A DNA stretch of 64,000 nt, taken from the IMG/VR virus record IMGVR_UViG_3300025237_000002, positions 32,001-96,000 of that record, one strand, 5' to 3'. This document shows, piece after piece, positions 22,855 to 59,660 of this stretch. The notes under the pieces are model-generated. The model was not told the origin of the DNA. It made no database searches and worked only from the letters and a program-made list of their open reading frames with translations. The first letter of the stretch is position 1; every line of letters begins with the position of its first letter. Origin of the DNA: a virus. A program made the translations under genes and the position numbers.

Positions 22855-24081
22855 TAATAGGTGGTGGGACATTTGAACCCATCAGGAATCATTTAAGTTT
22901 ATGCGCACCAGCATTTGGTGTTACAGCTAGACATATACATAAACGTTTAGAGGGTGCTGAATTACACTTGACTAAGATGTGTGATTGGCGTTCACCGTTG
23001 GTGACCAATGATGACGTTGAAGAGTTTATTGATGAATTAATTGAAGATAAAACCGTTGGATGAATTAATTGAAGATAAAACCGTTGGAACTATCGTAATG
23101 AATGTAGCTTTATGTGATTTTAAAGCGTTACCGATTGATGAGAATGAGAATGGGTGGCATGGTAAACGTTTAAAGACATCTGAGGGTGATTTAACGATTA
23201 CTTTAACCCCAACTGATAAAATCATAAGTAAGATTAGAAAGGCACGCCCTGACATCTTCCTTGTAGGTTTTAAGACAACAACCAATGAAACGTCAAACGA
23301 CCAATTTCTTATTGCGTTGAAGATGATGAAGTCATCCAAATGTAACTTGGTGTTGGCAAATGATACGGTTACTAGAAACAATATGATTATCACTCCAGAA
23401 GAAACTATCTATGGTGAAACTGTTCTTAGATATTCAGTAATTGAAGAGTTGTGTGAGATGATTGAAATGAGGCAGAGTCTTACGTATCATAGAGGTGAGT
23501 TTATTGTAGGTAAAGATATTCCATTTGAAAATGCACCTGAAAACTTTAAAGAGGTTATGGGATTTTTACTTGATAATGGTGGTTATATAGAGAATAATGG
23601 CAATGGGTTCACACCAGGTCATTTTTGCTATAGAAGTGATGTATTTGAATCCAATGATTTTATATCTTCACAAAGACTTGTCAATCATAATGATGTGAGA
23701 GAAAATGGGATGACCTATGTAACAACTGCTGGAATGTGTAAATCTTTCACGTATTTAGGAAGTAAAAAAGCTTCAGTTGGTGCTAGAAGTCAAGCGTTAT
23801 TACTTAGTGAGAATCCAGAGTATGACTTTATTGTACACACTCACAACCCATTAAAGAAAGATAGTTTAATCCCTATAACACCACAGAAACCATTTCAATG
23901 CGGTTCTATAGAATGTGGTGTAAACACATTGAATCATTTAGGTGATTTCAACGATAGAAATATCAAAGCTGTGTTCCTAGAAAAGCATGGTATTAATATG
24001 TTGTTTAAGAAAACAACAAAATCTGAGGACGTAATAGAATTCCTCAAAAATAATATAGAATTAGGAGTGAAAATACGGTAA
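22836..24081 (+). pseudogene. CoaB/DFP-like ligase domain fused to class II aldolase-like domain, split by a 28-bp duplication
   Basis: GGGTFEPIR, ALCDF, LVGFK, LVLAND (CoaB); IVHTHNP...HG (aldolase II); removing one repeat copy gives a single 405-aa ORF. Confidence 0.75.
23031..23088 (+). repeat. exact 28-bp tandem duplication causing frameshift
   Basis: GATGAATTAATTGAAGATAAAACCGTTG x2 plus GA. Confidence 0.95.
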
Positions 24082-51948: not shown

Positions 51949-52083
51949 TAGAAGTATATAAAAAAATCTAACACATAAAAATTATATAAGGAAGTTGTCT
52001 TTTATTAGAACAGATAACTAAGAATATCTAGTAGCATTAATTCATTCTTAGGTTAGTGCCAATTTCCTTATTACATAACACAG

Positions 52084-52363
52084 ACACAATTGTGTACCCG
52101 AAAAAATTATATATATAAATCCATACACACATCACCCTTACATACACTTTTGTGTTGACCAAAAATCAATCCTTATATACACACCTATTAGAGCACCTAC
52201 GTACACTTTTGTGTTGGGGGAACTAAGAGGGAGTGATAAACCACTAGAAGGGAGATATGTGCGTCTGAGAGGTACTTTAATATACCCCTTTCTGTTATCA
52301 TACGACACGTTTCGGTTATTTCGATGTTACCACCTTTTACCACTTTTTACCACTAAAACCCAC
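52084..52363. repeat. phased palindromes and 10-bp-period repeats (origin/terminus-like)
   Basis: ACAC-N4-GTGT at 52084, 52144, 52203; TTACCAC at 52327, 52337, 52347. Confidence 0.7.
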
Positions 52364-52746
52364 AATTTGGTGTAGGCGGTCATTGGCGAAATATCCTACA
52401 TCTTAAATGCAGAGCGACCTGTAAATAAAATTATTAATATTTTACAAATATTTTTGGGAATGCTCATGGCAAGCCCAGTGCCCCTTACGGGCATAATTGG
52501 AGGGTTATATAAGGCACATTTAAAAAAAGAGCATGACGGTGTGCGCAGCGGTAGATGCCATGGTCCATAAAATATATTTCGATTTGTTGTAAGAAAAATC
52601 CTCACCTCTATATGTAGGGTTTGAGCAGTTCTCATCCATTCCACCTGTAAGGTATTTCTTACAAAGTAGATGCAACAAGTCATCCCAAGAACAATTACGT
52701 TTTTGGGTTGGAGGGTGTGTTCGAGTATGTCCCCGAATCTGTTTCA

Positions 52747-52754
52747 CAAAGATA
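52747..52754 (-). promoter_or_regulatory. Bacteroidetes -7 promoter element pointing into the non-coding hub
   Basis: CAAAGATA on + strand = TATCTTTG on - strand. Confidence 0.65.
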
Positions 52755-52921
52755 CAACAAATAAGTCGTATAAAAAAATAAATAACGTTAGGATATTAAA
52801 AATAATTGTTGTATCTTTATAACGTCATCGTTGGTAGTTGGAGTCAAAAATTTGAGTATAGGGTTCTGCGGAGTCTACTCTTCTAACTTGTTAGGTCAGC
52901 CCTTACCATCTTGGTACACTA

Positions 52922-52953
52922 CAAAGATAAGGAATATAATTGGTTCTACCTAA
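52922..52953 (-). promoter_or_regulatory. Bacteroidetes-type promoter, leftward
   Basis: minus strand TTAGGTAGAACCAA...TATCTTTG. Confidence 0.75.
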
Positions 52954-53063
52954 TTAAATCACATTTATTTTTAAATTAGATAAATTAAAAGTGCTAACTA
53001 TAGTATGTTGTGGGCACGGCTATGATATACTATCTTTGCAGCTAACAATTAAAACTATCTATT

Positions 53064-53264
53064 ATGAATTACTATTATGAAATACACGTAACAGGCAAGA
53101 ATGGATTTTCTACAGCAGTCATTGCTGATATGCCAATGGAAGATGATGATATCATACTTAAGGCATATGAGGATGACATCCTACATGATGATGATTGCCA
53201 TTATATTGATTATATTCAGGAGCTGTCATTTGAGGATTGGAATACACACTTTAATAATATGTAA
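53064..53264 (+). CDS. small acidic hypothetical protein
   Basis: follows promoter at 53031. Confidence 0.6.
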   Translation: MNYYYEIHVTGKNGFSTAVIADMPMEDDDIILKAYEDDILHDDDCHYIDYIQELSFEDWNTHFNNM

Positions 53265-53501
53265 GAATTTTCTTGCGTATGTTATATATAATGATTATCT
53301 TTGCATTTCACTTAATAACTACATATGTTATATACAGATAAAGCAAAGATAATTAAGCAAGAGGCATTACTTCTTTTAAAAAAAGTTGGTAGTAATAAGA
53401 AGATTGGTAAGAAGGAGATGACTTGGTTCTTTAAGAAGGTTACTGACTATAAGGACACTGATGATAATATGTGGGTAACACATAAAATAGATTAGTATAA
53501 A

Positions 53502-53533
53502 TTAGGTTATGTCGAATATAAGTTGTATCTTTG
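53502..53533 (+). promoter_or_regulatory. Bacteroidetes-type promoter driving the candidate ncRNA
   Basis: TTAGG-N19-TATCTTTG. Confidence 0.75.
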
Positions 53534-53537
53534 TATT

Positions 53538-53985
53538 CAACAATTACAGTAAGATGAAGTAGGTCGATTACTTTTAAAACTAACGTAGACACCTTCCCTC
53601 AGATTATGGAAAACTGATGAGCAGCTTAAGCCAAGCAATTGGATAAGGACTAACATAGATAACAAAATAATAGGATATGGTTGAGATGAGTACTTTACAA
53701 TAACGAATACTATTATTTTAATTAACCTTAAAACTTAGAACTTATGAAATAAGCTAAAAGTACATTTTTAAAAAACTATTGATAACCTTTTAAAACTATG
53801 CGGTATGTTAGCACGGGCACCACCCATTGGGTGAAACTTAAATAAGATAAATTAAAAGAAGAATGATACTGAAGGGTTAAAGACCTTCGTGCTCTCTAGT
53901 AAGGAGCCATCCGCAAGATGAAGACCAGCAGTCGGTATTATTTGAGATGTAAAAGCCCATTGATTAATTTCAATGGGCTTTTTTT
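53538..53985 (+). ncRNA. candidate ~450-nt structured non-coding RNA
   Basis: bounded by promoter and intrinsic terminator, no ORF of 60 aa or more, at least 8 hand-found helices including a 4-way junction and possible pseudoknot. Confidence 0.6.
53951..53985. terminator. bidirectional intrinsic terminator
   Basis: AAAA-GCCCATTGA-loop-TCAATGGGC-TTTTTTT between convergent units. Confidence 0.9.
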
Positions 53986-53988
53986 ATG

Positions 53989-54363
53989 TTATAATGATTT
54001 CTTAATTAATTTATCAATTTTCTTTAATATTTTATCATCCCATTCTTCCATGGTATCATCGTGCGGTTCTTGTCCAGTTTGCGACTCGAATTCCTGAAGC
54101 ATATATTCTTTATGCTTATCCATTTCACCGTTGATAGTTGTCCACATATCACCCCATCCAGCCTCTAAGAACTGTTCAGCCCAGTCTGGTATGTTAGAAT
54201 TGAATAATTCCTTCTTTACCTTATCAATCTTAGCTAGTTTATCCAGTAGCCCTTCATTGGTAATTCCAAAACATTCATTACATACAAGTTCTTTTCCAGT
54301 TTGCCCGTCCCAAGTTCTGTAATCTTTGACTTGAGCCTCGTTTTCACAATAGTAACATTTCAT
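53989..54363 (-). CDS. hypothetical protein with N-terminal zinc ribbon
   Basis: CxxC...CxxC; own minus-strand promoter at 54391-54398. Confidence 0.75.
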   Translation of the reverse strand: MKCYYCENEAQVKDYRTWDGQTGKELVCNECFGITNEGLLDKLAKIDKVKKELFNSNIPDWAEQFLEAGWGDMWTTINGEMDKHKEYMLQEFESQTGQEPHDDTMEEWDDKILKKIDKLIKKSL

Positions 54364-59276: not shown

Positions 59277-59660
59277 ATGAAATTTACATACACAAACTCA
59301 ACAAATACAATCTGGACCTCCTTTGACTGTGGTGAGGTTGAAGCGAATAACCATCACGAAGCTTTAATTAAAGCTGAAGCTGAACTACAGGTGAAATTAG
59401 ATATCGTCAACGCTGCACTAGCTGCTAATCCAGAAACAAGAGGGGTGACCATTGAGATGAACATGGATAACATAGAAGTTACCCCAGTGAAGAGTTTCAA
59501 TCACGTAATGAATTTCAATTTCACAGTTGAATCGGATTCTGAAGACGCACCTAACACGAATGAAATTCGAAATGGTCTCACCAAGGGTATTGATGCCCTG
59601 AAGAATGACCCTATCGAGCTTTTAGAACGGACCGTAATTACGGATACAGTCGAAAGTTAA
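59277..59660 (+). CDS. hypothetical protein
   Basis: promoter at 59200 and repeat leader. Confidence 0.7.
   Translation: MKFTYTNSTNTIWTSFDCGEVEANNHHEALIKAEAELQVKLDIVNAALAANPETRGVTIEMNMDNIEVTPVKSFNHVMNFNFTVESDSEDAPNTNEIRNGLTKGIDALKNDPIELLERTVITDTVES

What the first reader, a model, noticed from the sequence alone, without database searches (positions are those of the whole stretch)
53538..53985. Unannotated ~450-nt structured RNA with its own promoter and terminator
Seen: a canonical promoter (TTAGG-N19-TATCTTTG, 53502-53533) and a strong terminator (53951-53985) bracket a stretch with no ORF of 60 aa or more, in an otherwise wall-to-wall coding genome. Hand-found helices: AAGTAG/TTACTT (53557/53568); CTTA..CCAA-GCAA-TTGG..TAAG with a GNRA loop (53625-53647); a perfect 10-bp AAAATAATAG/CTATTATTTT (53664/53710), whose enclosed GTACTTT (53690) can pair with downstream AAAGTAC (53757) as a pseudoknot; TTAG..CTTAT/ATAAG..CTAA (53735-53757); CACCC/GGGTG (53821). 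A 3' four-way junction is closed by AATGATACTG/CGGTATTATT (53862/53933) and encloses AAGG/CCTT, GCTC/GAGC and CATC/GATG arms. An alternative pairing AGCACGGG/TTCGTGCT (53810/53886) suggests a switch. Established: phages carry large structured ncRNAs (e.g. GOLLD, ROOL). Inference: a new large phage RNA class, possibly a scaffold, protein sponge or tRNA/tmRNA-like decoy. I could not match it by eye to tmRNA, RNase P, 6S or SRP.
Basis: partly seen in the sequence, partly recalled or inferred. Interest (0 to 1): 0.85.

Follow-up and report, generated by a model that had tools for sequence, protein, structure and literature searches.

The report
Conserved modular non-coding RNA cassette
An uncultured giant marine phage of Bacteroidota carries a gene-sized unit with its own promoter and terminator that codes for no protein; its roughly 180-base core is kept better than the neighbouring genes in two related phages, so it is most likely a new RNA gene of unknown function, but not one large 450-base folded RNA.

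Summary
The unit is real. A copy of the phage's 55-copy promoter (53502-53533) and a strong terminator (53951-53989) bracket about 450 nt with no ORF, stops of all three kinds in all six frames, and no codon periodicity in substitutions. No Rfam family, tRNA or tmRNA matches.

I reached only two other versions, in a TARA scaffold (L017) and in IMG/VR records G001/G002. They show a modular transcript.
- **Module A (53556-53732):** present in all three. It is 92% and 62% identical, against 40-57% at third codon positions of flanking genes.
- **Module B (53861-43943 read as 53861-53943):** a multi-branch junction found only in the window and L017, with the same fold and compensatory changes.
- **Spacers:** lineage-specific.

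The 10-bp helix, the pseudoknot and the 'switch' are not conserved. Fold energies are no better than shuffles, and covariation for a rod-like module A is marginal with three sequences. No expression data could be obtained.

Verdict: a selected, stand-alone phage ncRNA family new to Rfam, function unknown, most likely acting in trans. The same stretch was also noted from an overlapping window of this genome, not on other DNA.

The parts
53502..53533 (+). Promoter: TTAGG, 19-nt spacer, -7 box TATCTTTG (Bacteroidota sigma-A type)
   Evidence: It is one of 55 copies of TT[AT]GG-N18-20-TAT[CA]TTTG in the 110-kb record. blastn also finds the repeats. The -7 box occupies -12 to -5 in Flavobacterium (PMC9723704), which puts the predicted start at about 53538.
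53538..53562 (+). mRNA-like leader and a two-codon mini-ORF (ATG AAG TAG at 53554-53562)
   Evidence: The leader resembles the shared cassette leader, with an ATG at the usual distance from the promoter. The ATG is kept in L017 but lost in the G002 version, so it is probably not essential.
53556..53732 (+). Module A: conserved non-coding core with invariant blocks GAAGTAGG, AAAACTAACG, AAACTGATGA, TAACATAGATAACA, GAGTACTT and TTAACCTTAAA
   Evidence: Present once each in G000, G001, G002 and L017. Identity is 0.92 to L017 and 0.62 to G002, against 0.40-0.57 at third codon positions of flanking genes. There is a 94-96% identity peak at 53550-53700. Substitutions show no 3-periodicity.
53620..53651 (+). 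Apical hairpin of module A, capped by a GNRA tetraloop (GCAA in the window, GTAA in G002)
   Evidence: The pairs 87:116, 92:112 and 100:105 of alignment A2 change on both sides and stay paired.
53558..53711 (+). Tentative rod-like fold of module A (36 pairs in eight short helices with conserved internal loops)
   Evidence: RNAalifold gives 9 compensatory pairs and 95% of cells paired. Against refolded column shuffles, the covariation term is matched in 1 of 200, but 9 or more compensatory pairs arise in 18 of 300. The structure conservation index (SCI) is 0.45. The support is marginal.
53733..53860 (+). Lineage-specific spacer, including the CACCC/GGGTG hairpin at about 53821-53833
   Evidence: No counterpart in L017 or G002. 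The local fold is no better than shuffles.
53861..53943 (+). Module B: multi-branch junction. An A/U-rich closing stem of 8-10 bp encloses three hairpins, plus a fourth 3-bp one in the window.
   Evidence: The same architecture is the MFE fold in the window and in L017 (z -1.85 and -2.35; the window MFE takes 24% of the ensemble). CATC/GATG becomes CTCC/GGAG, and a G-U becomes A-U in the closing stem. G-U pairs fix the + strand. It is absent from G001/G002 and has no paralog.
53951..53989 (.). Intrinsic terminator shared with the convergent 124-aa gene (53989-54363, minus strand)
   Evidence: 13-bp stem, 6-nt loop and T7 tail on the + strand. It is 88% identical in L017, where it still follows the RNA unit although two other genes now separate it from the 124-aa gene.

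Best explanation
This is a stand-alone non-coding RNA gene in the promoter-dense cassette region of an uncultured giant marine phage of Bacteroidota.

Host sigma-A RNA polymerase should start at about 53538 from a standard phage cassette promoter and stop at the terminator at 53951-53989. The transcript is modular:
- Module A (53556-53732) is a core of about 180 nt shared by all known versions.
- Module B (53861-53943) is an optional multi-branch junction.
- The spacers between them are lineage-specific.

Shown here: the unit is non-coding, the + strand is the functional strand, and module A is under purifying selection.

Inferred: module A forms a weakly paired rod capped by a GNRA hairpin. 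This rod displays invariant, mostly unpaired 8-14-nt blocks, and the RNA acts in trans by binding a host or phage factor through those blocks (scaffold or decoy). Module B would serve as an accessory 3' folding or stability element.
For: - **Promoter:** identical in type to 55 cassette promoters of this genome. The position of the -7 box follows PMC9723704.
- **Terminator:**
- **Not coding:** no ORF, stops in six frames, and substitutions spread 25/31/29 over the three codon phases.
- **Homologs:** present in L017 and G001/G002, in a rearranged gene neighbourhood, each with its own promoter and terminator.
- **Selection:** module A is 0.92 and 0.62 identical, against 0.40-0.57 at third codon positions and 0.73 or less overall in flanking genes. 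It is the sharpest identity peak in 1.5 kb.
- **Structure:** compensatory changes occur in the GNRA hairpin, and the covariation term exceeds 199 of 200 refolded shuffles. The junction fold is reproduced independently in two sequences.
- **No known family:**
Against: - Only three distinct sequences could be reached, so covariation is marginal: 9 or more compensatory pairs arise in 18 of 300 refolded shuffles.
- Module A folds no better than shuffled sequence (z +0.42 and +1.75), and the SCI is 0.45.
- There is no expression evidence.
- Related phages of the L015/L016 group lack the cassette after the 90-aa gene that precedes it in G002, so it is dispensable.
- The 92% identity to L017 could partly reflect recent exchange of the cassette rather than constraint.
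- The protein-binding mechanism is pure inference. No partner gene is conserved next to it.
Confidence: 0.6

Rival explanations
1. It is a base-pairing regulatory RNA. The invariant single-stranded blocks would be seeds that pair with host or phage mRNAs or with another RNA (sRNA or sponge).
For: The invariant 8-14-nt blocks sit in weakly structured sequence. One block contains CAT, which could cover a start codon. Another reader proposed an anti-leader sRNA elsewhere in this genome (unchecked).
Against: Complements of the blocks are not enriched on the + strand (most ORFs here are on +) of the phage genome: observed counts are about at or below the Markov expectation. The longest block is at control level in two Flavobacteriaceae genomes. 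blastn finds no extended antisense match in the record. The host is unknown, so host targets were barely tested.
Confidence: 0.15
2. It is a precursor cut into several small RNAs. Module B or the repeated TAACCTT..AAAAC motif would serve as processing or stability signals, as proposed for the tRNA-like elements behind this phage's GOLLD RNA.
For: The build is modular with interchangeable spacers. A TAACCTT(T)(T)AAAAC-like motif occurs at the end of module A, and again at 53783 in the window and at about 1716 in L017.
Against: Module B has no T-loop and no tRNA-model or ARAGORN hit. Its only similarity to the tRNA-mimic region is E = 0.74. No ends could be mapped.
Confidence: 0.1
3. It is a decayed protein cassette or a DNA-level element. 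The promoter and leader would survive from a former gene, and the transcript itself would have no function.
For: The 5' end looks like an ordinary cassette leader with an ATG followed by only two codons. The cassette is absent from some relatives. Thermodynamic signal is weak.
Against: Conservation is far above third-codon-position identity in three lineages and in a different neighbourhood. Promoter and terminator are retained in every copy. Compensatory changes occur in two helical elements.
Confidence: 0.1
4. It is an mRNA for one or more micro-peptides, or a cis-acting riboswitch or attenuator.
For: Mini-ORFs exist (ATG AAG TAG, and a 9-13-codon frame starting in CTGATGA). A junction directly before a terminator resembles an aptamer with an expression platform.
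Against: The mini-ORFs differ in start, length and sequence among the three versions, and substitutions show no codon periodicity. Reading TAG through does not open a frame. Nothing lies downstream to regulate: in the window the next gene is convergent, and in G002 the next gene has its own promoter. No riboswitch model matches.
Confidence: 0.05

Closest known systems
GOLLD and ROOL (large phage- or prophage-borne RNAs; GOLLD is Rfam RF02032)
   Same: Phage-borne and ORF-free.
   Different: No covariance-model match even at E <= 10. The shared core is only about 180 nt, predicted stability is ordinary, and the transcript is a chain of modules rather than one ornate fold.
6S RNA, including 6S-Flavo (RF01685, number recalled from memory)
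   Same: Size of roughly 180 nt. The tentative fold is an irregular rod with a 12 x 13-nt internal loop and conserved loop sequence. A role in redirecting host RNA polymerase would fit an RNA made from a host-type promoter.
   Different: No Rfam family of any kind reached E <= 10 on module A, the 6S families included. The rod is thermodynamically weak, its closing stem has only 7 pairs and does not use the RNA ends, and no product-RNA (pRNA) template can be recognised. This is resemblance of shape only.
tRNA and the tRNA-like mimics of this genome
   Same: Module B is a junction of helices closed by a long stem. One arm has a 5-bp stem and a 7-nt loop, and another reads GCTC...GAGC like a D-stem.
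   Different: There is no T-loop, no GG in any D-like loop and no CCA end. ARAGORN and the Rfam tRNA model find nothing. The nhmmer similarity to the mimic region is not significant (E = 0.74).
Small stable RNAs of lytic phages with unknown role (phage T4 RNA species C and D; from my own knowledge, not checked here)
   Same: Phage-encoded, non-coding, function unknown.
   Different: Those lie inside the tRNA operon and are released by processing. This unit has its own promoter and terminator among small-gene cassettes.
Prophage-encoded trans-acting sRNAs and sponges (DicF, AgvB/AsxR; from my own knowledge)
   Same: A stand-alone promoter-to-terminator RNA unit on a phage genome. Conserved unpaired blocks could be seeds.
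   Different: Those are 50-100 nt, depend on Hfq and have known targets. Bacteroidota lack Hfq, and no target enrichment was found here.

Membership tests
Any Rfam 15 family (GOLLD, ROOL, 6S, tmRNA, RNase P, SRP, tRNA, riboswitches, ribozymes) | Covariance-model score at or above the family's gathering threshold | tested here: not met
   There were 0 matches at gathering over the whole window. At E <= 10, only terminator-driven or trivial hits appeared. The best within the unit was Hammerhead_II at 13.5 bits against a threshold of 37.
tRNA / tRNA-like element (module B) | Cloverleaf with a T-loop (TTCRA-type 7-nt loop on a 5-bp stem), a D-loop with GG, and a 7-bp acceptor stem with discriminator and CCA | tested here: not met
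   ARAGORN found 0 genes in the window and there is no tRNA model hit. The third hairpin has a 4-bp stem with a 5-6-nt loop CGCAA, and 14-15 extra nt precede the closing stem.
tmRNA | tRNA-like domain formed by the two ends, plus a tag reading frame | tested here: not met
   ARAGORN's tmRNA search was negative and no Rfam tmRNA hit appeared. No conserved frame exists.
Hammerhead ribozyme | CUGAUGA and GAAA cores around three helices, with a UH cleavage site | tested here: not met
   CTGATGA is present and invariant. However, the strand after the apical hairpin reads TAACATAG in all three versions, not GAAA, and the model score is 13.5 bits against 37.
Bacteroidota sigma-A promoter | -7 box TAnnTTTG at -12 to -5, with an upstream TTTG-like -33 element | tested here: met
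   TATCTTTG lies at 53526-53533 with TTAGG 19 nt upstream. The same build occurs at 55 sites in the genome, mostly in front of real ORFs. The box definition comes from PMC9723704. Activity was not measured.
Intrinsic (Rho-independent) terminator | G+C-containing hairpin followed by a T-run | tested here: met
   13 pairs, 5 of them G-C, a 6-nt loop and seven T. It is conserved at 88% in L017.
Riboswitch / attenuator | Aptamer plus expression platform upstream of a regulated gene on the same strand | tested here: not met
   The next gene is convergent in the window. In G002 the next gene has its own promoter after the terminator. No aptamer model matches.
6S RNA | Rod of about 180 nt formed by the two ends, with a large central bubble that mimics an open promoter; binds the RNA polymerase holoenzyme | tested here: inconclusive
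   No 6S or 6S-Flavo model hit. A tentative rod with a 12 x 13-nt loop has marginal support. Binding cannot be tested with these tools.
Bacterial Y RNA (YrlA) with Ro/Rsr | Rsr-binding stem plus a tRNA-like domain; an Rsr (TROVE) gene, often with RtcB, nearby | tested here: not met
   No TROVE or RtcB gene in the held 110 kb, which is about 31% of the genome. No Y RNA model hit and no T-arm.

The most novel reading that the evidence does not exclude
Module A is the founding member of a new class of structured RNA in giant phages. Its conserved internal loops, on a GNRA-capped rod, would bind and redirect a central host machine early in infection. One candidate is sigma-A RNA polymerase, in the manner of 6S RNA; another is the SD-independent Bacteroidota ribosome, through its mRNA-like leader and start-stop mini-ORF.
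Probability: 0.2. Interest if true: 0.75.

Novelty: new variant of a known kind. Interest (0 to 1): 0.45.

Why it matters
Giant marine phages of Bacteroidota are uncultured and their promoter-dense cassette regions are almost entirely unannotated. In this one, a promoter-to-terminator unit with no coding capacity is kept better than the surrounding protein genes. Together with the GOLLD RNA, tRNA mimics and small RNA cassettes noted elsewhere in the same genome, it suggests that these phages invest heavily in RNA-level functions. A defined 180-nt core with invariant blocks is a tractable object for a covariance-model search of ocean viromes and metatranscriptomes, and for pull-down experiments. 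As it stands, though, it is one more orphan RNA motif, known from three sequences and with no function.

Tried and rejected

- No RNA holder was listed by the look-up of sequencing runs, so read laying was not used and expression is untested.

**Searches for more homologs**
- Single-protein scans of IMG/VR with three neighbouring proteins found nothing.
- Exact-pattern scans built from the invariant blocks returned only G001/G002 among about 100 stretches. The rest are chance, as shown by alignment, nhmmer and CM R2.
- The best CM extra hit (L015 8124-8219, 23 bits) lies inside an ORF.
- A blastn hit of the junction's first 40 nt in G001/G002 is an A-rich coding stretch.
- GenBank phages gave no DNA or protein match.

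**Readings considered and dropped**
- Recoding of stop codons: the record has a CUA-anticodon tRNA, but reading TAG through leaves TAA and TGA stops.
- A minus-strand hydrophobic ORF: it is 99 aa in L017, but its start and stop are not conserved, substitutions show no periodicity, and the T-rich strand explains its composition.
- Hammerhead, K-turn or box C/D reading of CTGATGA: the partner strand does not fit.
- SRP, RNase P and Y RNA: no model hits, and no TROVE or RtcB gene.
- A MITE-like inverted repeat (53518/53731): not kept in the relatives.
- Homology between the window's spacer and L017's extra 3' segment: the alignment score is below the shuffle mean.

Full report
**Setting.** The window is bases 32001-96000 of a 110.5-kb IMG/VR virus record that CheckV rates about 31% complete. 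Earlier notes of this scan describe it as a giant marine phage of Bacteroidota with a GOLLD RNA and tRNA arrays (not rechecked here, except that ARAGORN finds 20 tRNA genes upstream of the window). Most ORFs are short, lie on the + strand and form promoter-led cassettes.

**The observation.** The stretch 53496-53990 has no ORF above 42 aa. All six frames are closed by a mix of TAA, TAG and TGA, so no single stop-codon reassignment opens it.

The proposed promoter is real in the sense that matters. TT[AT]GG-N18-20-TAT[CA]TTTG occurs 55 times in the record, almost always 16-29 nt before the ATG of a substantial ORF, and the copy at 53502-53533 is a good one. In Flavobacterium the sigma-A -7 box TAnnTTTG lies at -12 to -5 (PMC9723704).

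The terminator (13-bp stem, 5 G-C pairs, T7) is the only strong one in 6 kb on this strand. It also ends the convergent 124-aa gene at 53989-54363.

The transcript begins like the cassette mRNAs, with a similar leader and an ATG at the usual place, but the frame stops after two codons (ATG AAG TAG).

**Known families.** Rfam 15 gives nothing at gathering thresholds for the whole window. At E <= 10 it gives only terminator look-alikes and trivial hits. ARAGORN finds no tRNA or tmRNA.

**Relatives.** The flanking 124-aa protein has 11 homologs at 44-73% identity. An alignment-based scan recovered nine loci instead.

Three distinct versions of the non-coding unit exist among what I could reach:
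- **The window.**
- **A TARA scaffold (L017).** Here 53252-53759, 53840-53917 and the terminator all match.
- **IMG/VR records G001/G002, and an identical metagenome contig.** Only 53522-53749 matches here. It lies 3.5 kb away from the 124-aa gene, in the opposite relative orientation, behind a different gene, and is followed after about 60 A/T-rich nt by its own terminator.

Each genome has one copy. Phages of the L015/L016 group lack it after the 90-aa gene that precedes it in G002. Four further pattern scans, GenBank phages and two covariance models added no more homologs.

**Architecture.**
- **Module A (53556-53732)** is shared by all three versions. It alternates invariant blocks of 8-14 nt with variable stretches.
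- **Module B (53861-53943)** is shared by the window and L017 only.
- **The window's 53733-53860** has no counterpart elsewhere. This stretch holds the CACCC/GGGTG hairpin, the 3' partner of the proposed pseudoknot and the 5' partner of the proposed switch.
- **L017** instead carries an unrelated 135 nt after module B.

The unit is therefore a chain of modules, not one 450-nt fold.

**Non-coding and under selection.** Substitutions between the window and G002 fall 25/31/29 over the three phases. Mini-ORFs and a hydrophobic minus-strand frame differ in start, stop and length among the versions.

Module A is 0.92 identical to L017 and 0.62 identical to G002. In the flanking genes the third codon position is 0.47-0.57 and 0.40-0.48 identical respectively, and overall nucleotide identity is 0.60-0.73 and 0.48-0.73. 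In a sliding comparison with L017, 53550-53700 stands out at 94-96% against 50-74% around it. This indicates purifying selection on the sequence itself. For L017, recent exchange of the cassette cannot be excluded.

**Structure.**
- **Energies.** Thermodynamics alone says little. The z-score is -1.71 for the whole unit with its terminator, +0.42 for module A in the window and +1.75 for it in G002.
- **Rod model.** RNAalifold proposes a rod of 36 pairs in eight short helices, capped by a GNRA loop. It has 9 compensatory pairs and 95% of cells paired. Because the structure was derived from the same three sequences, I refolded column-shuffled alignments as a control. The covariation term is matched in 1 of 200, but 9 or more compensatory pairs arise in 18 of 300, and the SCI is 0.45. 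The rod is a hypothesis with marginal support.
- **Apical hairpin.** The hairpin at 53620-53651 is its best part. It shows three double changes, and the loop changes from GCAA to GTAA.
The 10-bp helix at 53664/53710 is not kept. AAGTAG/TTACTT is conserved in sequence without covariation.
- **Module B.** Independent MFE folds of the window and L017 give the same junction (z -1.85 and -2.35). One arm changes from CATC/GATG to CTCC/GGAG, and a G-U becomes A-U in the closing stem.
- **Strand.** G-U pairs in both modules fix the + strand, and the reverse complement scores worse.

**What it is not.**
- Module B is not tRNA-like beyond being a junction: it has no T-loop and no model hit, and its similarity to the tRNA-mimic region is E = 0.74.
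- CTGATGA is not part of a hammerhead, because no GAAA strand follows.
- No TROVE or RtcB gene is present in the held part of the genome.
- It cannot be a riboswitch, since nothing lies downstream on the same strand to regulate.
- Complements of the invariant blocks are not enriched on the + strand (most ORFs here are on +) of the phage genome or in two Flavobacteriaceae genomes. An antisense role is therefore unsupported, although host targets were hardly tested.

**Most likely mechanism.**
- **Shown:** an independent + strand unit, non-coding, with a selected 180-nt core and a reproducible 3' junction.
- **Inferred:** the RNA is made from a host-type promoter and acts in trans. The invariant, mostly unpaired blocks, held on a weak GNRA-capped rod, look more like binding sites for a protein or ribonucleoprotein than like a compact ribozyme or aptamer.

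I rate 'functional stand-alone ncRNA' at about 0.6-0.8, and the scaffold or decoy mechanism within it at about 0.3. The rivals are a base-pairing sRNA, a processed precursor, a decayed cassette, and a peptide mRNA or cis-regulator.

**Novelty and verdict.** This is a new RNA family as far as Rfam 15 and my searches can tell. It is known from three phage lineages and belongs to a familiar kind, the orphan phage ncRNA genes.

**Limits.** I had three sequences, no expression data and no known host.

Noticed in passing
window 51950-53060 (especially 52300-52980): This ORF-poor stretch just upstream of the finding is also conserved in relatives. It is 74% identical over 465 nt in L017, with a 92% peak at 52550-52599. 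In G001/G002 it is 72% identical over 218 nt, and 83% over 52302-52366. No Rfam hit. Other readers flagged it as origin-like.
   Followed up: partly
window 52855-52953 (minus strand); L015 7500-7570: A promoter copy drives a short ORF-less unit containing GAAGAGTAGACTCC. The same core follows a promoter in the related phage L015, and at genome positions 96341 and 99197 (minus strand; 99197 reads GAAGAGTGG) just beyond the window's end. It looks like a small RNA cassette family shared across these phages.
   Followed up: partly
L019 2920-3050 (= G002:C1:8524-8654): A G+C-rich stretch of about 100 nt with long-range complementarity (GCGGCCA ... TGGCCGC) follows a gene's stop codon and ends in a strong terminator. 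It is a possible further structured RNA in the relative.
   Followed up: no
genome G000:C1 about 23790-23863 (8.2 kb before the window): ARAGORN calls a tRNA with anticodon CUA (labelled Pyl), that is, an amber-suppressor-type tRNA, within the phage tRNA array. Reading TAG through does not open a frame in the finding.
   Followed up: partly
whole record; window 52788, 59176 and others: The record holds 55 copies of the promoter TT[AT]GG-N18-20-TAT[CA]TTTG. Several are followed by no ORF or by a long structured leader (for example 59176, about 70 nt before the ATG at 59277). The cassettes share an A/C-rich leader ending in ATCA(C)ATG.
   Followed up: partly
window 53554-53562: The RNA keeps a start codon at the normal cassette distance, followed by Lys and a stop (ATG AAG TAG). 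It is identical in L017 and lost in G002. This may be a relic of a coding ancestor or a ribosome-loading site.
   Followed up: partly
window 53722-53740 and 53783-53798; L017 (reverse complement) 1577 and 1716: A TAACCTT(T)(T)AAAAC-like motif ends module A in all three versions. It recurs once more in the window and in L017 at non-homologous places, so it may act as punctuation or a processing signal.
   Followed up: no
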